Source: Alphaproteobacteria bacterium
GTDB lineage: Bacteria; Pseudomonadota; Alphaproteobacteria; JBFXJJ01
Direction of reading: 5' to 3'
NCBI GenBank assembly: GCA_050175015.1
Contig: JBFXJJ010000012.1
Span: forward strand, 22,549 to 86,548
DNA length: 64,000 nt
How positions within the stretch are numbered: the first letter of the stretch is position 1; the number at the start of each line of letters is the position of its first letter. Shown piece by piece: positions 11,601-16,105 of the stretch. The notes below the pieces were generated by a model, which saw only the letters and a program-made list of their open reading frames with translations, was not told the DNA's origin and ran no database searches. Position numbers and translations under genes: made by a program.

Positions 11601-13544
11601 CTAGTTCATATTTTTTATTTCATTAGCAGTAAGTTCAATACTGCTAACAACTTCTCCAGATTGAGCCGAACTTTGGTTAAAAGCTTCTTCCAAAGAATTA
11701 AAACGCTGTTCAATCGAATGAATATTAAGTTGCAGTTGTTCATAAATTACCGAAACATCATCTAATTTATGGTTGATTGCTTGTTCACTTTCTTTGGTAG
11801 TTTCAATAACTTTCTTTGACTCTCCCGCAAGTTTTCTAACTTCTTCAGCAACAACAGCAAACCCTTTACCAGCATCGCCAGCTCTTGCTGCTTCAATAGT
11901 AGCATTAAGAGCAAGCAAGTTGGTTTGAGCTGCAATATCCACAATTTCTTCAGAAACTCTAGAAAATTCATTAAGATTGATTTTAACACCATCAATAACA
12001 TTGTTAAGATTTCCTGATACGGATAAAATTTCTTCTAAATTTTGCCGTAAACCATCAAAATGTTCGGCATTGCTGCCCGTAATTTGACTTAAATATTTTG
12101 CCTGACCCAAAATATTATCAACATTGTTATTGATTGTTATAAATTTGTTTTTTCTCTCTTCATTAAAAGCTTCAATTTTTTCAATATTCTTAACCAGCTC
12201 ATCATTTTTGGCTAAGATAATATTTTGTTCATATTCCAGCTCTTTTTTATTATAAAACATACAGTTTTCTTTGTGATTTTGACCTTTAAAAACAGCGGTT
12301 GCAAATCTTTTACAGCTGCCATAACCGCAGGCTCCACAATTAATTTCACGGGACTCTTTGGTATCTTTATGTAAACTATTAAAAACTTGATCAAATTCTG
12401 TAGAATTAGGATTAGATATTTTAATTTCACTAGAATGGTCAGAATAACGTCTTAAAAAATCTTCCAATTTTAAGTTCTCTTCACACCATTTTTCCATAGT
12501 ATAAATAGATTCCTTAAAACGCTTTTTTTCGGTTTTATCAATAATCACCTGCTGTTTCATAACATTAGTACGATAATCAATATCGTCAATTTCAATATCG
12601 CGACCCGTGCCTGTACCAAGATTACAGCCTTGCGCACAATTTAAAATATCGACTAAAAGCGGTGTTTTTTTACCTTCTTTAATTCTATCAGCATAGTTAT
12701 CTAAATAGTGATAGGCGTGTTCAAAACCTTCAACCTGTTTTACCCAAGCGCCCGTAACATAATGCTCAACATTTTCCCTAAGACCACCAGGGCGGCTATA
12801 AGTTAAGCCTAGACCACAGGTTGGAATATTATCAAAGTCTTTTTCCTCATATGAGGTTAAGTTGATTTTGTTTTTTTCTAAATATTCGTGAATTTTAGCA
12901 TAAGTAACGTTATATTGCAGAATATTCTTCGTATTAGGATCATTGACTTCATCGTATTTAGCAATGCAAGGAGAAAGAATAGCAATCGGTTCCGAAATAT
13001 CCATATATTTGCGCATATAAACTGCGGTACAGCTTATAGGACTATGAACTGGGGATAACTGAGAAAGAATCTCTGGTTTATATTTTTGAATATAATTAAC
13101 AATCGCAGGGCATGGCTGAGCAATGACCGTTTTCAGTCCTTTAGTTGCAATAGCCTTAAGATAGGCCCAAGTAGTAATGTCAGCGCCAAAGGAAACGTCA
13201 TAAATTACATTAACGCCGATCGACTTTAAATAGCCAAATAATTTCTTATAGTTGCTAAAATTGTGATAAACAGAAGGCGCTGCAACGCAGGAAATGCGTC
13301 TGCCCTTCTTTAGATCATCAAAAAATTCCTCGGTATCGTCAATATAATAGCGAGCTTCGTGATCGCAGACTGCAATACAAGCTCCACATTTAATACATTT
13401 AGTATCATCAACTTTAATGATACTCTTGCCGTTTTCAATGGCGCTGTAGTTGGCTTCAAGCGTCGGACAGGCAGCAATGCACTTGTTGCAGCCTACGCAC
13501 TTTTCAGCGTCAACATTAATAATTTTTTTTAAAGGTTTAAGCAT
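11601..13544 (-). CDS. Sensory [FeFe]-hydrogenase-like methyl-accepting chemotaxis protein (2x[4Fe-4S], H-cluster-like domain, FeS domain, MCP signalling domain)
   Basis: CVGCNKC..CP and CIKCGAC..C; H-cluster-type motifs [23 protein letters not shown]; [10 protein letters not shown]; MCP core [37 protein letters not shown]; AGGAGG RBS. Confidence 0.9.
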
Positions 13545-13547
13545 AAG

Positions 13548-13815
13548 AACACCTCCTAATGTGATAAATATTAGAAAGCCACCGAGCGAACTCGGTGGTC
13601 AGGGTGTTCGAAACCTTATAGAAAGATTAAGGCATAGCTGTCTTTAGCCAAAGCCTGAACATACACAACTATCACCCCGACCAGAAAAGAAAAAGCCGAG
13701 GTTTAACACGTTATCTTTCGGTCTGTGCTTGACCGCTTTCTAAAAGGGGTTTCGAAGCCCCAGTTTGCAAAATCTGCAAACCTTTTTGACACTAAAAGAT
13801 AATTGTGAAAAACAC
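13548..13815 (-). promoter_or_regulatory. Candidate cis-regulatory (riboswitch-like) leader RNA, family not recognised
   Basis: GC-rich multi-hairpin leader; G-U pairs work only on the minus strand; UUCG-capped hairpin at 13579-13598; alternative 11-bp helix 13673-13683 with 13596-13606. Confidence 0.6.
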
Positions 13816-13943
13816 AAGGTTATAATTTGATATTAGGCACAAATTAAGAAAAAACATTTGCATTAAAAGATTATTTTTAGAGCTTTGAGACAAGCGGTTG
13901 AGGTCTTAGTTTTTAGATTATCTCTAAAAGAAAGTCTAGTGTT

Positions 13944-14240
13944 TTATTTACAACAGATATTTTTTAAGGTTTTTATTATGTCTCTGATGTTATCGCCTTT
14001 GAGGCGGTATATTACATTGAGACCATTTTTTTCATACTCAACAAGATCAAGGTTTTTTAGAACGGCTAAATGCTGCGACATTGGAGATAAAGACAATCCA
14101 GAGGCTTCTGCCATCTCAGATACTGTCATTTCCTTACTGCAAAGCATACACAAAATCATAAGCCTTTTTTCGTTATCAAGTGCTTTAATTAAACCCAATG
14201 CTTTTTCAAGGCTTTCCTTTTTAAATGGTAAATCTTCCAT
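13944..14240 (-). CDS. ArsR/SmtB-family repressor, BigR/SqrR-like (probable persulfide sensor)
   Basis: RLMILC (alpha2 Cys), SQHLAVLK HTH, C-terminal Cys pair; start at 14240 preferred because of a GAGGT RBS (track start 14264). Confidence 0.85.
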   Translation of the reverse strand: MEDLPFKKESLEKALGLIKALDNEKRLMILCMLCSKEMTVSEMAEASGLSLSPMSQHLAVLKNLDLVEYEKNGLNVIYRLKGDNIRDIIKTLKNICCK

Positions 14241-14257
14241 ATTATTTTTTTTACCTC

Positions 14258-14305
14258 TTGACATCTTGTTTAGAGTAAACTAAATTAGAATTATCTAAAT
14301 TAGTT
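14258..14305 (+). promoter_or_regulatory. Sigma70 promoter with overlapping ArsR-type operator for the sulfur module
   Basis: TTGACA (14258-14263), 17 bp spacer, TAAATT (14281-14286); 12-4-12 inverted repeat AACTAAATTAGA-ATTA-TCTAAATTAGTT (14278-14305, one mismatch). Confidence 0.65.
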
Positions 14306-14338: not shown

Positions 14339-14989
14339 ATGAGAAAGCAAAAAATGACATCAAGAGAGCTTAGGCAATGGTTTTTTACCCCTTTGTTTAT
14401 ATTGGTTATAGCTCTTGGCTGGAAATACCCATATTTGGGATATATGGCTCCAGTTACTATGGCAGCAGGGTTTGCTGTAAGCTTTTTTAAAGGAAGATAC
14501 ATTTGTGGCAATTACTGCCCTAGAGGGGCTTTTTTTGATAGACTTATGTCTAGGTTGACTTTAAGCCGCCCGATTCCTAAATTCTTAAAAAAGAAATCTT
14601 TTCGTTATGGCGTTGTTGTTTTTATGTTGTCTTTAATGACATATAAAATTGCGATTAATCCTTTTGATGCCAAATATATCGGACTGGTTTTTTGGCAGAT
14701 GTGTTTTGCGACATCTTTACTTGGGGTTACATTAGCCGTGTTGTATAAGCCTAGAACGTGGTGTTCTTTTTGTCCTATGGGAACAATCGAAGCTGCTATT
14801 GGCGGCAACAAACAGCCGATAGTTTCACAAAAAGGGGTTTGCAAATCTTGCGGCTTATGTGAAAAAAGATGTCCTATGGAATTGGAGATAGTTAATAAAG
14901 TAGAAGATGGAACTATCGCCAATCCTGATTGTATTAAATGTGGTGAATGTATCGGCTCTTGTCCGATAAAAACGTTAAGGAGGAAATAA
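14339..14989 (+). CDS. Membrane 4Fe-4S binding protein (NapH/MauN/YccM-like)
   Basis: GRYICGNYCP and RTWCSFCPMG motifs, TM helices, two C-terminal CxxCxxCxxxCP. Confidence 0.85.
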   Translation: MRKQKMTSRELRQWFFTPLFILVIALGWKYPYLGYMAPVTMAAGFAVSFFKGRYICGNYCPRGAFFDRLMSRLTLSRPIPKFLKKKSFRYGVVVFMLSLMTYKIAINPFDAKYIGLVFWQMCFATSLLGVTLAVLYKPRTWCSFCPMGTIEAAIGGNKQPIVSQKGVCKSCGLCEKRCPMELEIVNKVEDGTIANPDCIKCGECIGSCPIKTLRRK

Positions 14990-14990
14990 A

Positions 14991-15521
14991 ATGAGTAAAG
15001 ATTGTCAGTTGTCTTTTCGCAATAAAGCCTGGTCGCCCTATGTCGTCGGGGTTTTAATCGGACTGCTTCAAATTCCAGCTTTTATGCTAATTCATACGGC
15101 GCTTGGAGCATCATCTTCATTTGTTACCGCTGCGGCAGATATTTTAAGAGTGTTTGATCCTGCGGTTGGTGAAATAAAATATGCTGCCAAGCACTTTGAT
15201 GGCGGAAAAAACTTTTGGCAGTTGACTATGGTTATAAGCATTGCCTTAGGCGCATTTATTTCGGCTTATTTTTCTAAATCACTGAAAAAGGAAAATTCGC
15301 CAGTATGGAATAAAGCTCTTAAAAACTATAGCAAAGGCAAAAGATTTTTGATGGCATTTATTGGCGGTTTTGTTGTGCTTATGGGGTCAAGAATTGCCGA
15401 TGGCTGTACGAGTGGACACGGAGTTTCAGGCATAGCTCAACTAGCAATAGGTTCTACCGTTGCAATCGTTTTTATGTTTGTTGGCGGTTTTATAACAGCC
15501 AAATTCTTTAATAAAATATAA
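14991..15521 (+). CDS. YeeE/YedE sulfur-compound transporter subunit
   Basis: WSPY.VG, GSRIADGCTSGHG signature. Confidence 0.88.
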   Translation: MSKDCQLSFRNKAWSPYVVGVLIGLLQIPAFMLIHTALGASSSFVTAAADILRVFDPAVGEIKYAAKHFDGGKNFWQLTMVISIALGAFISAYFSKSLKKENSPVWNKALKNYSKGKRFLMAFIGGFVVLMGSRIADGCTSGHGVSGIAQLAIGSTVAIVFMFVGGFITAKFFNKI

Positions 15522-16105
15522 TGGAGGCAGAAATGACAGTATTTTCATCAATCGTTGTTGGAATTCTAATGGGGATAGCCTTCGGATTCTTAATCGAAAA
15601 AGGGCGTATTTTTGAACCTGGATATATTGTTGGTCAGATGCAGCTGCGTAAGTTTATTATGCTCAAAGTTTTTTTAACCGCTGTAGCAACAGGTTTAATC
15701 GTAATTTCGATAATGTATAGTTTTGGTCTTGTTAAACTCCACCCTAAGGCTTTAATGTGGGGAGCCGATGTTATTGGCGGCTTATTGCTTGGGATAGGTG
15801 TTACGATTGCGGGAGCTTGCCCAGGAACTATTTTAGCTCAAGTCGGCGTTGGTTATAAAGATGCGTGGTTCAGCCTTTTGGGTGGTTTAACAGGAGCTGC
15901 GGTATATATTTATTTAGAGCCAAGTCTGACCCAAACAATATTTTACAAATCATTGGGTAAAATCACGCTGGCAGATTTAACGGGAATACCTTTTGCCGCA
16001 TTAGCTCTGCCGATAGCTGGCGTTATATTTTTAGGACTTTACTTTTTAGAAAAGAAAATTCCTTGGCAGAGTGAAATTGGAGATAATGCTGACGGCGTAT
16101 CATAA
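15521..16105 (+). CDS. YeeE/YedE (DUF6691) sulfur-compound transporter subunit
   Basis: [23 protein letters not shown] signature. Confidence 0.88.

What the first reader, a model, noticed from the sequence alone, without database searches (positions are those of the whole stretch)
13548..13815. Unassigned riboswitch-like leader with a complete expression platform upstream of the FeS chemoreceptor
Seen on the minus strand, in a GC-richer leader within AT-rich intergenic DNA. Helix P1 (TTATCTTT 13795-13802 with AAAGATAA 13711-13718) closes a junction of three hairpins: GGTTTGCA/TGCAAACT, GGGG-CTTCGAAA-CCCC (T-loop-like) and CGGTC-AAGCACA-GACCG. Two more stems follow (ACCTCGGC/GTCGGGGT and ATAGTTGT/ACAGCTAT), whose G-U pairs work only on the minus strand, and then a CCACCGAG-UUCG-CTCGGTGG hairpin. 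Mutually exclusive pairings are visible. TGGTCGGGGTG (13673-13683) pairs with CACCCTGACCA (13596-13606), and CTCGG with CCGAG, which would sequester the 5' arm of the UUCG hairpin as an antiterminator. Alternatively, TTCGAAACC..TAGAAAG (13736-13756) pairs with CTTTCTA..GGTTTCGAA (13607-13625), directly abutting the antiterminator's 3' arm. CTTTCTAAT can also occlude the ATTAGGAGG Shine-Dalgarno. I could not match it to c-di-GMP-I/II, SAM, Moco, B12, T-box or NiCo consensus from memory. Inference: a possibly new ligand- or protein-sensing RNA switch controlling H2/redox taxis. The weak U-tract leaves open whether control is transcriptional or translational.
Basis: partly seen in the sequence, partly recalled or inferred. 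Interest (0 to 1): 0.78.

Follow-up and report, generated by a model that had tools for sequence, protein, structure and literature searches.

The report
Two-state leader RNA, sRNA-Xcc1/C4 relative
The stretch is a real, conserved folded RNA leader that can take two competing shapes next to a transcription stop signal and probably keeps the chemoreceptor gene behind it off by default; it is a distant relative of the catalogued small RNAs sRNA-Xcc1 and phage C4, not a wholly new kind of RNA.

Summary
Window 13566-13782 (minus strand) encodes a strongly folded RNA (z -5.4). No Rfam family reaches its threshold there.

It is one of 5 copies in this alphaproteobacterial genome and at least 10 in a second MAG. 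The model built from them also finds full-length relatives in five further families.

Two mutually exclusive folds are both backed by compensatory changes:
- State 1: a long helix closing three hairpins, which leaves a terminator free to form. 40 of 52 pairs covary.
- State 2: a three-way junction whose closing helix takes the terminator's 5' base and an anti-Shine-Dalgarno stretch. 6 of 9 pairs covary.

State 2 matches the consensus of Rfam RF02221 (sRNA-Xcc1) below threshold and has the topology of phage C4 RNA.

Its "alternative" pairings are the real helices.

The same leader precedes unrelated genes, so it is not a hydrogen- or redox-taxis device. The trigger is unknown and ligand binding is untested.

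This scan has already noted the family on other DNA: 45 findings in at least 39 genomes.

The parts
13819..13847 (-). Candidate promoter only: TTAATT (13847-13842), a 17-nt spacer, TATAAC (13824-13819). This would start the RNA near 13812.
   Evidence: Read by eye. The -35 hexamer matches only 3 of 6, so the consensus scan did not list it. Other copies have clearer sigma-70-like promoters at the same distance, for example L033 TTGCTT-17-GATAAT and G002 TTGACG-17-TACTCT. No transcript data are available.
13762..13782 (-). Hairpin A (GGTTTGCA-GATTT-TGCAAACT). It is conserved in position and variable in sequence.
   Evidence: Every copy examined has a hairpin here.
13746..13761 (-). 5' hairpin GGGG-CTTCGAAA-CCCC. 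Its loop and 3' arm are also the 5' strand of the long helix P1, so it belongs to state 2.
   Evidence: By eye on the rows, the hairpin can form in the 16 distinct 5' ends I read, with A1-U16, U1-A17 and A4-U13 variants. It forms when the outer helix is forced.
13736..13756 (-). P1 5' strand (TTCGAAACC..TTTTAGAAAG), the analogue of the a1/b1 sites of C4-type leaders.
   Evidence: In helix 1, 16 of 23 pairs change on both sides. Searches agree.
13719..13735 (-). Hairpin B (CGGTC-AAGCACA-GACCG).
   Evidence: 6 of 6 pairs change on both sides (helix 2).
13695..13702 (-). Hairpin C 5' strand (ACCTCGGC). In state 1 it pairs with the switching strand.
   Evidence: In helices 3 and 4, 6 of 9 pairs change on both sides.
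13673..13682 (-). Switching strand GGTCGGGGTG. It is the 3' arm of hairpin C (state 1) or the 5' strand of the outer, antiterminator helix (state 2). It corresponds to the first positions of the RF02221 model.
13634..13672 (-). Hairpin D/E, present in both states. The stem is ATAGTTGT/ACAGCTAT. It encloses the conserved internal loop GTATGTTCA...CTAAAG and the small hairpin E.
   Evidence: 9 of 9 stem pairs change on both sides (helix 5). It aligns to hairpin 1 of RF02221.
13613..13633 (-). Hairpin F (GCCTTA-ATCTTTCTA-TAAGGT), state 2 only. Its loop and 3' arm are part of the P1 3' strand.
   Evidence: It can form in 20 of 20 sequences. Stem variants are GCCUU/AAGGU, GCCAU/AUGGU, GCCGU/RCGGU, GGCUG/CGGCU and GCUAU/AUAGU. 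It aligns to hairpin 2 of RF02221.
13607..13625 (-). P1 3' strand (CTTTCTA..GGTTTCGAA).
13597..13609 (-). Tail GAACACCCTGACC. It is the 3' strand of the outer helix (CACCCTGACC, 13606-13597). Its first part, GAACACC, is complementary to the ribosome-binding region. Its last two bases are the start of the terminator stem.
13566..13598 (-). Terminator-like hairpin CCACCGAG-TTCG-CTCGGTGG (13598-13579), followed by CTTTCTAATATTT.
   Evidence: Listed by the terminator scan. All 15 copies shown have a hairpin in this position, most followed by a T-run. The T-run here is weak.
13542..13560 (-). Ribosome-binding region ATTAGGAGGTGTTC and the ATG (13544-13542). GGTGTTC (13553-13547) is complementary to the tail. 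ATTAGGAGG can also pair with CTTTCTAAT (13578-13570).
   Evidence: duplex of -11.8 kcal/mol lying on the SD; the local SD hairpin appears in the MFE fold.
11601..13544 (-). Downstream gene of 647 aa: 4Fe-4S ferredoxin domains, the [FeFe]-hydrogenase large-subunit C-terminal domain, a putative Fe-S domain and the MCP signalling domain.

Best explanation
The element is a cis-acting, bistable leader RNA of the sRNA-Xcc1/C4 type. It sits between its own promoter and the chemoreceptor gene and acts as a default-off gate.

State 1 is the predicted ground state. The 5' segment (13756-13736) pairs with 13625-13607 to make a long helix, P1. Hairpin C holds the switching strand GGUCGGGGUG. The tail is left free. 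The terminator hairpin (13598-13579) can then form, and in any read-through RNA the tail GAACACC can pair with the ribosome-binding region GGUGUUC.

In state 2 the switching strand pairs with the tail. This closes a three-way junction (outer helix, hairpin D/E, hairpin F), which is the fold catalogued as sRNA-Xcc1 and has the topology of phage C4 RNA. That pairing removes the base of the terminator stem and releases the ribosome-binding site, so the gene is transcribed and translated.

Shown here: the RNA is conserved, both folds are under selection, the terminator and the anti-SD complementarity are present, and there is family-level kinship to RF02221.

Inferred only: that the RNA switches in vivo, the direction of control, and the trigger. 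The candidates I rank highest are removal of the 5' competitor strands by processing (as RNase P does for C4) and action in trans of a short terminated isoform (as described for IsrK). A small-molecule ligand ranks lower.
For: 1. Real and conserved. There are 5 copies in G000 and 8 in G002 with model R1, plus 2 more G002 copies with RF02221. R1 gives 8 matches among 29 further loci. Five are full-length matches in five other alphaproteobacterial genomes, one is a partial match (L060), and two are the extra G002 copies.

2. State 1 covaries: 40 of 52 pairs, 93.5% paired. On the smaller 14-sequence alignment it is 34 of 52.

3. State 2 covaries independently. For the outer helix, 6 of 9 pairs change on both sides and 98.3% of cells pair, while slid controls give 0-1 pairs. 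Type-2 copies change GGUCGGGGUG/CACCCCGAYC to GACUGGGAG/CUCCCAGUC, and the 5' strand of hairpin C changes with them. Hairpin F forms in 20 of 20 sequences, with stem variants that the P1 5' strand does not mirror (rows).

4. Expression platform. A hairpin follows the outer helix in 15 of 15 copies shown, mostly with a T-run, and its 5' arm overlaps the helix's 3' strand by 2-5 nt. There are only about 20 nt between this hairpin and the SD. No sigma-70-like site was scanned on the minus strand between 13545 and 13810, so the gene must be reached by read-through.

5. Anti-SD. The best duplex of the 11-nt tail with the 112 nt downstream lies on the SD in 15 of 20 leaders. Cognate pairs average -9.7 kcal/mol against -7.25 for non-cognate pairs.

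6. Default off. For the window copy, state 1 is the MFE at -86.8 kcal/mol, and forcing the outer helix gives -77.1. State 1 equals the unconstrained MFE in 17 of 20 leaders.

7. Kinship. RF02221 aligns over its whole length (positions 1-87) to exactly the outer-helix-bounded domain. Scores are 40.6, 40.6, 38.5 and 33.9 bits in G002 type-2 copies, 22.8-24.6 in three G002 type-1 copies, and 23.6 in G000 copy 2. Canonical RF02221 loci carry the same 5' hairpin and complementary upstream strand. The C4 consensus has the same topology.
Against: - There are no transcript data. No RNA run holds the locus, and the contigs laid say nothing on starts, ends or processing.
- The T-run after the window's hairpin is weak (CTTTCTAATATTT), and copy 2 in G000 has no T-run and sits about 115 nt from its gene. 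Termination efficiency is therefore uncertain here.
- State 2 is predicted to be 5-24 kcal/mol less stable than state 1. It may never form in the full-length leader without a factor I cannot name.
- The window copy itself gives no RF02221 match, even at E <= 10.
- The C4 model finds nothing in G000 or G002 at E <= 1.
- Downstream a2/b2-type target sites, typical of C4 and of the canonical Xcc1 loci, are not detectable in this subfamily.
- The covariation counts were made on alignments fitted to the state-1 model. The 20 sequences come from only 7 genomes, and 15 are paralogues from two genomes.
Confidence: 0.7

Rival explanations
1. It is a true riboswitch. The conserved three-way junction (or the P1-closed junction) binds a small molecule or second messenger, and binding decides between terminator and antiterminator.
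For: - There is a large conserved multi-helix junction with invariant unpaired nucleotides: GUAUGU.CA, CUAAAG and UGCC.
- There are mutually exclusive terminator and antiterminator pairings.
- Subfamilies combine the same core with different expression platforms: terminators in AT-rich genomes and SD-flanking sites in GC-rich ones.
- The gene set (chemoreceptors, pilin-like proteins, outer-membrane and surface proteins) recalls the regulons of second-messenger riboswitches. That comparison is from recall, not from a call.
Against: - The genes controlled share no pathway. They include restriction enzymes, XRE regulators, phage antirepressor-like genes, small unknown proteins and DUF1232.
- The variable, copy-specific complementary segments (P1 upper part and F loop) behave like antisense recognition sites, not like a ligand pocket.
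- The predicted gap between the states, 5-24 kcal/mol, is large.
- No ligand test was possible.
Confidence: 0.15
2. It is a stand-alone small RNA gene: an Xcc1/C4-like trans-acting antisense RNA with its own promoter and terminator. Its position upstream of the chemoreceptor gene is incidental.
For: - sRNA-Xcc1 was detected in Xanthomonas campestris as a discrete RNA of about 88-100 nt with mapped ends (PMC2996969, passages read).
- G002 copies have a strong promoter and a strong intrinsic terminator.
- G000 copy 2 lies about 115 nt from its gene.
Against: - In every copy where an ORF was visible, the next ORF is co-oriented. It starts 20-60 nt after the hairpin in 14 of the 15 copies and about 115 nt after it in L027. 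No promoter-like site was found in between in the window.
- The tail is complementary to the SD of its own downstream gene, and the two change together between type 1 (AACACCC / GGGUGUU) and type 2 (AACUCC / GGAGUU).
Confidence: 0.1
3. It is a miniature mobile element (MITE/REP), or merely the terminator region of the upstream ArsR gene.
For: - It is multi-copy within each genome.
- One metagenomic copy (L025) is flanked by a direct repeat of about 85 nt.
- It lies downstream of the ArsR ORF, which ends at 13944.
Against: - Copies share structure, not sequence. BLAST finds only one paralogue, at 65% identity.
- The copies are always oriented toward a downstream gene, and homology starts at a promoter.
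- No terminal inverted repeats or target duplications were seen in G000 or G002 copies.
- The upstream genes differ at every locus.
- Compensatory changes preserve RNA helices with G-U pairs that are valid on one strand only.
Confidence: 0.03

Closest known systems
sRNA-Xcc1 (Rfam RF02221). An 88-nt RNA of Xanthomonas campestris, also annotated in integron cassettes upstream of symE, in APSE phages upstream of an ORF6N gene, and in Xylella islands.
   Same: - It has the same three-way junction: a closing helix, a hairpin with an internal loop, a second hairpin GCCNN...NNGGU, a U-rich joining strand, then RCC.
- The model aligns end to end on the outer-helix-bounded domain of the leaders.
- Canonical members also carry the upstream GGGG..CCCC hairpin and complementary strand, and they sit in front of co-oriented genes. 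The same position is reported in passages of 10.1101/2025.06.18.660453 and 10.1101/2020.03.17.996009.
   Different: - No copy in G000 or G002 reaches the 53-bit threshold. The best is 40.6 bits, and the window copy has no match at E <= 10.
- The Rfam model covers only the 3' 87 nt, and the family is described as a trans-acting sRNA (passages; Chen et al. 2011 is not held).
- This subfamily adds hairpin C, an intrinsic terminator and tail:SD pairing, and it lacks the SD-flanking repeat of the upstream sites.
C4 antisense RNA of phages P1/P7 (Rfam RF01695, with c4-a1b1 RF03163), in the immI leader.
   Same: - The consensus topology is the same: an outer helix enclosing two hairpins, a 7-nt joining strand before the 3' strand, then aCC.
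- An upstream segment of the same transcript is complementary to the RNA's recognition segments. This is the a1/b1 with a'/b' logic, and here it is P1.
- The RNA lies in the leader of the gene it controls. Canonical Xcc1 loci even repeat the upstream sites around the SD, by eye in 14 of 25 loci.
- For comparison, C4 is cut out of a longer transcript by RNase P at the 5' end of its closing stem, and its loops occlude the RBS (PMC5320573, passages).
   Different: - The C4 model finds nothing at E <= 1 in G000, G002, G086 or G254. A true C4 in G278 lies at a locus separate from its Xcc1 copies.
- There are no a2/b2 sites in this subfamily.
- A terminator follows the RNA here.
- RNase P processing is untested.
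IsrK of Salmonella Gifsy-1 (Rfam RF01394).
   Same: - It is a leader RNA with its own terminator that exists as a short terminated form and a read-through, translationally inactive mRNA. The short form activates the long one in trans (PMC4825925, abstract read). This is a worked precedent for a default-off leader of this layout.
- In L101, isrK lies directly upstream of C4.
- The loop of its first hairpin (GCAAAAUC) resembles hairpin A of the G002 copies (GUGGCAAAAUCCAUGC).
   Different: - There was no RF01394 match at E <= 1 in the 9 loci scanned.
- The window's hairpin A does not carry that loop.
- Action in trans is not tested here.
Transcription-terminating riboswitches in general.
   Same: There is a structured conserved domain, a switching strand shared between two helices, and an intrinsic terminator overlapped by the antiterminator.
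   Different: - No ligand is known or inferable.
- The downstream genes are heterogeneous.
- No match to any Rfam riboswitch family was found.

Membership tests
Rfam RF02221 sRNA-Xcc1 | Covariance-model score at or above the gathering score of 53 bits | tested here: not met
   The window copy gives no match at E <= 10. In G000 and G002, 0 of 2 genomes are over the cut-off. The best score is 40.6 bits, and G000 copy 2 scores 23.6 bits.
Rfam RF02221 sRNA-Xcc1 | Three-way junction: a closing helix around a hairpin with an internal loop and a second hairpin, then a joining strand | tested here: met
   Full-length model alignments cover positions 1-87. The closing helix covaries. Hairpin D/E has 9 of 9 stem pairs covarying. 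Hairpin F forms in 20 of 20 sequences.
Rfam RF02221 sRNA-Xcc1 | Continuity with accepted members (intermediate sequences, same flanks) | tested here: met
   Scores run continuously from 70 to 32 bits across the 25 of 151 alphaproteobacterial genomes that have a match (one of the 25 is the unpublished G040, which I did not use otherwise). Model R1 built from this subfamily gives full-length matches at five of those loci (L068, L065, L067, L057, L061) and a partial match at L060. Accepted members have the same upstream hairpin and complementary strand.
C4 antisense RNA (RF01695) / immI-type leader | Covariance-model score at or above 45 bits | tested here: not met
   There are 0 matches at E <= 1 in G000 and G002.
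C4 antisense RNA (RF01695) / immI-type leader | Upstream a1/b1 sites in the same transcript, complementary to the RNA's recognition segments | tested here: met
   P1 pairs 13756-13736 with 13625-13607. In helix 1, 16 of 23 pairs change on both sides.
C4 antisense RNA (RF01695) / immI-type leader | Downstream a2/b2 sites that flank or cover the RBS and match the same recognition segments | tested here: not met
   The F-loop/J segment has no consistent downstream target in 20 leaders; z is near 0 and the positions are scattered. A different segment, the tail, is complementary to the SD in 15 of 20.
C4 antisense RNA (RF01695) / immI-type leader | Excision by RNase P at the 5' end of the closing helix | not testable with these tools
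   Only an indirect hint exists. RCCA follows the closing helix in 17 of 27 alphaproteobacterial loci but in only 2 of 25 loci of the phylum sample. The window has ACCG.
Riboswitch (any class) | Conserved structured domain plus mutually exclusive expression-platform pairings | tested here: met
Riboswitch (any class) | Direct, specific binding of a small-molecule ligand | not testable with these tools
   No assay was possible.
Riboswitch (any class) | Downstream genes that point to one metabolite or signal | tested here: not met
   The downstream genes are chemoreceptors, DUF1232, Mrr/ResIII, an OMP beta-barrel, a small unknown protein family, XRE regulators, phage regulators, pilin-like proteins and lipoproteins.
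Known riboswitch and leader families of Rfam 15 | Match at the gathering score | tested here: not met
   The whole window gives 3 tRNA matches only. The region at E <= 10 gives three chance-level matches with E >= 3.
MITE / REP element | Many near-identical copies with terminal inverted repeats and target-site duplications, in either orientation | tested here: not met
   BLAST finds one paralogue at 65% identity. The 5 copies are all upstream of co-oriented ORFs. No terminal repeats were seen by eye.

The most novel reading that the evidence does not exclude
The Xcc1-type three-way junction is a genuine sensor domain, that is, an undiscovered riboswitch class, or a sensor of a cellular factor such as a second messenger. 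Proteobacterial mobile elements and accessory genes would use it widely to license expression. This alphaproteobacterium has wired it to chemoreceptors, including an [FeFe]-hydrogenase-like one. 'sRNA-Xcc1' would then have been mis-filed as a trans-acting sRNA for 15 years.
Probability: 0.15. Interest if true: 0.85.

Novelty: new variant of a known kind. Interest (0 to 1): 0.52.

Why it matters
The catalogued 87-nt sRNA-Xcc1 is listed as a trans-acting small RNA of unclear function.

The data here indicate that it is only the 3' domain of a leader about 200 nt long, with two evolutionarily maintained, mutually exclusive folds. The leader sits in front of accessory, surface, sensory and mobile-element genes.

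The family is common. It is present in 25 of 151 sampled alphaproteobacterial families at E <= 1e-3, and in 31 of 151 genomes of a phylum-wide sample at E <= 1e-5.

The AT-rich subfamily in this window couples that core to an intrinsic terminator and an anti-SD tail. It is a compact and experimentally tractable version of the switch.

If the gate works as proposed, it is a widespread default-off control for newly acquired or costly genes. It would also give a concrete mechanism to test for a poorly understood Rfam family.

For genome annotation, these leaders explain long 'empty' intergenic regions upstream of chemoreceptor and surface-protein genes.

Tried and rejected
TTATCTTT/AAAGATAA is present in this copy only and is rejected as a family feature.
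- **Pattern scans.** The scan for TCGGGGTGA-N5-GTGTATG-N8-38-CTAAAGA found only the 5 type-1 copies of one MAG in genome contigs and 1 contig in metagenome contigs. The pattern was too strict to show the family's real spread.
- **BLAST in relatives.** In 61 genomes it found G002. Two short matches, in G026 (37 nt) and G007 (24 nt), were not confirmed by model R1.
- **Larger models.** I worked with the 163-position model R1 only.
- **Expression data.** No RNA holder was listed for the locus. The four runs laid gave only short contigs of related strains over 13344-13718 and gave no starts or ends. The differences inside the fold (13651, 13684, a 5-nt deletion at 13685) fall in loops of hairpins E and C. 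Two more (13564, 13565) fall in the loop of the local SD hairpin between the T-run and the SD. This is weak support at best.
- **C4-like a2/b2 sites.** A search for them downstream of the 20 AT-rich-type leaders found none.
- **C4 and isrK models.** The C4 model (RF01695) gave no match in G000, G002, G086 or G254. No isrK or C4 match appeared at E <= 1 in 9 leader loci.
- **Energy table.** In one search the rows for L029 (the window) and L033 are artefacts, because hairpin-C columns misaligned in A6 were forced. The state-2 figure for L065 is also suspect. The window is judged instead.
- **Small protein family of G002.** It has no Pfam family at E <= 1 apart from one chance-level hit, and no relative in G000.
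- **Literature.** 24 papers hold 'sRNA-Xcc1', and I read passages in six. A search for Xcc1 with riboswitch and terminator found no paper that treats it as a cis-acting switch. Two of the six report that it lies upstream of a gene (symE, ORF6N). Chen et al. 2011 and Hartmann et al. 1995 are not held, and supplements were not seen. Either could bear on this.
It concerns an oriT elsewhere in this genome and has no bearing here.
Full report
**1. What is at the coordinates**

On the minus strand, between an ArsR-type gene (13944-14264) and a 647-aa gene (11601-13544), lies a 399-nt spacer. The downstream gene carries 4Fe-4S, [FeFe]-hydrogenase large-subunit and MCP signalling domains.

The 291 nt from 13830 to 13540 fold to -94.9 kcal/mol. 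Dinucleotide shuffles give -67.5 +/- 5.05 (z -5.43, 0 of 200 as good).

Rfam 15 at gathering scores finds only three tRNAs in the whole window. At E <= 10 the region gives three chance-level matches with E >= 3. The terminator scan lists CCACCGAG-TTCG-CTCGGTGG plus CTTTCTAATA.

**2. It is a family, not a singleton**

BLAST in the window's own genome (G000, 2.53 Mb, 49 contigs) found a second copy at 65% identity, also upstream of a chemoreceptor gene with Cache, HAMP and MCPsignal domains.

Among 61 relatives, all related only at class level, one MAG (G002) had five copies. A record title names it an alphaproteobacterium. Each copy has a TTGACG-17-TACTCT promoter-like site, a strong intrinsic terminator, and then the SD and ATG of a 55-76-aa ORF.

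I built a covariance model of the P1-enclosed domain (R1: 163 positions, 52 pairs).
- R1 finds 5 copies in G000 and 8 in G002, and none in G026 or G007.
- RF02221 adds two more copies in G002.
- G000 and G002 are each the only genome of their order in the held collection.
- R1 gives 8 matches among 29 further loci: full-length matches in five other alphaproteobacterial genomes (L068, L065, L067, L057, L061), a partial match in L060, and the two extra G002 copies.

**3. Downstream genes**

| Genome | Genes behind the leader |
|---|---|
| G000 | the hydrogenase-like chemoreceptor; the Cache/HAMP chemoreceptor; a 144-aa sCache_2 ORF; a DUF1232 protein; an Mrr_cat_2 + ResIII enzyme |
| G002 | 9 copies of an unknown small-protein family; one OMP_b-brl protein |

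The leader is therefore not specific to hydrogen or redox taxis.

**4. Two folds, both under selection**

RNAalifold on seven full-length copies gives the following:
- hairpin A;
- inside P1, hairpins B, C and D/E;
- then the terminator.

On the 20-sequence alignment A6 (7 genomes; fitted to R1, which favours the structure), 93.5% of cells pair and 40 of 52 pairs change on both sides. Slid controls give 38-49% and 14-20 pairs. The 14-sequence alignment gives 34 of 52.

The switching strand GGTCGGGGTG is the 3' arm of hairpin C. It is also complementary to the tail CACCCTGACC, just 3' of P1. This helix was not in the model. It pairs in 98.3% of cells, and 6 of 9 pairs change on both sides, against 0-1 in slid controls.

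In 'type 2' copies the pair becomes GACUGGGAG/CUCCCAGUC (or GACCGGGAG/CUCCCGGUC). The 5' arm of hairpin C changes too. Both partners of the switching strand are therefore maintained.

When the outer helix forms, two further local hairpins replace P1.
- GGGG-loop-CCCC (13761-13746) shows A-U and U-A variants of its first pair, read by eye.
- Hairpin F (13633-13613) can form in 20 of 20 sequences, with five stem variants. In L035 to L038 the P1 5' strand does not mirror these variants.

**5. Expression platform**

The tail's last bases begin the terminator stem. In all 15 copies displayed, a hairpin follows the outer helix directly. Most have a T-run, and the overlap with the helix's 3' strand is 2-5 nt.

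In the window the T-run is weak. Only about 20 nt separate the hairpin from AGGAGG, and no promoter-like site was scanned on the minus strand between 13545 and 13810.

The tail is also an anti-SD.
- Its best duplex with the 112 nt downstream lies on the ribosome-binding site in 15 of 20 leaders.
- The complementarity follows the type: AACACCC with GGGUGUU or GGAGGUGUUC, AACUCC with GGAGUU, and GAACAUCC with GGAUGUUC.
- Cognate pairs average -9.7 kcal/mol and non-cognate pairs -7.25.

For the window copy, the MFE fold (-86.8 kcal/mol) is state 1 with the terminator and a local CUUUCUAAU:AUUAGGAGG hairpin. Forcing the outer helix costs 9.7 kcal/mol.

Across the family, state 1 equals the unconstrained MFE in 17 of 20 leaders, and state 2 is 5-24 kcal/mol worse. 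The window row of that table is an alignment artefact. The gate is thus predicted to be off by default.

**6. What it is related to**

In E-value mode, Rfam RF02221 (sRNA-Xcc1) aligns over its full length to the domain bounded by the outer helix.

| Copies | Score (bits) |
|---|---|
| G002 type-2 copies | 40.6, 40.6, 38.5, 33.9 |
| three G002 type-1 copies | 22.8-24.6 |
| G000 copy 2 | 23.6 |

The gathering score is 53 bits. The window copy itself gives no match.

RF02221 is common:
- 25 of 151 alphaproteobacterial genomes (one per family) at E <= 1e-3, with 6 over the cut-off. The tally includes the unpublished G040, which I did not use otherwise.
- 31 of 151 genomes of a phylum-wide sample at E <= 1e-5, with 24 over the cut-off.

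The flanks of 27 + 25 such loci show the same extended layout:
- an upstream GGGG..CCCC hairpin;
- an upstream strand complementary to the second hairpin's loop and the joining strand;
- a downstream co-oriented ORF.

In the canonical, mostly non-alphaproteobacterial loci, the upstream sites are repeated around the SD. I saw this by eye in 14 of 25. That is the a1/b1, a'/b', a2/b2 arrangement described for phage P1/P7 C4 RNA. C4 is cut from a longer transcript by RNase P and occludes the RBS (PMC5320573, passages).

The C4 consensus has the same topology as Xcc1. The C4 model nevertheless finds nothing in G000, G002, G086 or G254, so this is a likeness in design and not a shown membership. In this AT-rich subfamily no a2/b2 sites are detectable. 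The terminator and tail:SD pairing take their place.

IsrK of Gifsy-1 is a worked precedent for such a leader. Its short terminated form activates its own read-through, translationally inactive mRNA in trans (PMC4825925, abstract).

**7. Literature**

The papers I could search describe sRNA-Xcc1 as follows:
- an 88-nt RNA with mapped ends (PMC2996969);
- a trans-acting sRNA (PMC12189769);
- located upstream of symE or of an ORF6N gene.

None describes the extended bistable leader. Chen et al. 2011 is not held.

**8. Earlier notes of this scan**

The scan lists 45 findings in at least 39 genomes with the same reading, a two-state Xcc1-like leader. I reached the Xcc1 link independently. I took the C4 lead from note e1-4955320 and then checked it in part.

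**9. Verdict**

It is a divergent member of a widespread family related to a known one, and it is not specific to this gene. The trigger is unknown.

I rate the cis-acting default-off gate at 0.7, a ligand-binding riboswitch at 0.15, a stand-alone trans sRNA at 0.1, and a mobile element or mere terminator at 0.03.

Noticed in passing
L012, L015, L017, L018, L019, L037, L038, L041, L042 (G002): Nine paralogous monocistronic units are scattered among housekeeping genes. Each has a promoter, the leader, a terminator and a 46-84-aa ORF with a conserved C-terminal half (..PIDATTKMLNAG..QAE.IYASMLLA..). The ORF in L042 looks broken by a stop. The family has no Pfam match and no relative in G000.
   Followed up: partly
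L025 1-500 (metagenome contig): This copy is divergent. Its 3' P1 strand no longer matches its 5' strand. It is flanked by a direct repeat of about 85 nt (1-90 and 411-500) that includes a hairpin and the start of an ORF. It could be a decayed copy, a duplication or an assembly artefact.
   Followed up: no
27 alphaproteobacterial loci (L047-L075, without L070) and 25 loci of the phylum sample (L076-L100): The closing helix of the Xcc1-like domain is followed by RCCA, like a tRNA 3' end, in 17 of 27 alphaproteobacterial loci but in only 2 of 25 loci of the phylum-wide sample. The window has ACCG. This may bear on RNase P recognition, or it may simply be the first bases of the following hairpin.
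   Followed up: partly
L101 1501-1732 (G278) and G002 hairpin A: A bona fide isrK-C4 tandem lies in a genome that also has five Xcc1 copies. The loop of isrK's first hairpin (GCAAAAUC) is nearly identical to hairpin A of the G002 leaders. This hints that the 5' part of these leaders is isrK-like.
   Followed up: partly
L031 1716-2150 (G000 contig 19): The ORF behind this leader copy is only 144 aa, an sCache_2 domain without a signalling domain. An unrelated membrane-protein ORF follows it. It may be a truncated chemoreceptor or a stand-alone sensor domain. A GGDEF/EAL-like ORF lies upstream.
   Followed up: no
window 11601-13544 (-): The regulated gene is unusual in itself. It is a soluble-looking chemoreceptor in which ferredoxin-like 4Fe-4S domains and an [FeFe]-hydrogenase H-cluster-type domain replace the usual ligand-binding domain.
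   Followed up: no
window 14339-16105 (+): Divergent from the ArsR gene lies a 4Fe-4S protein, followed by two adjacent ORFs. Each ORF matches one half of the Sulf_transp (YeeE/YedE-type) family: profile positions 171-310, then 1-154.
   Followed up: no
G014 contig 1, 749745-751817: Three RF02221 matches sit in tandem, 994 nt apart. This resembles the tandem array reported for a Xylella genomic island (PMC12189769).
   Followed up: no
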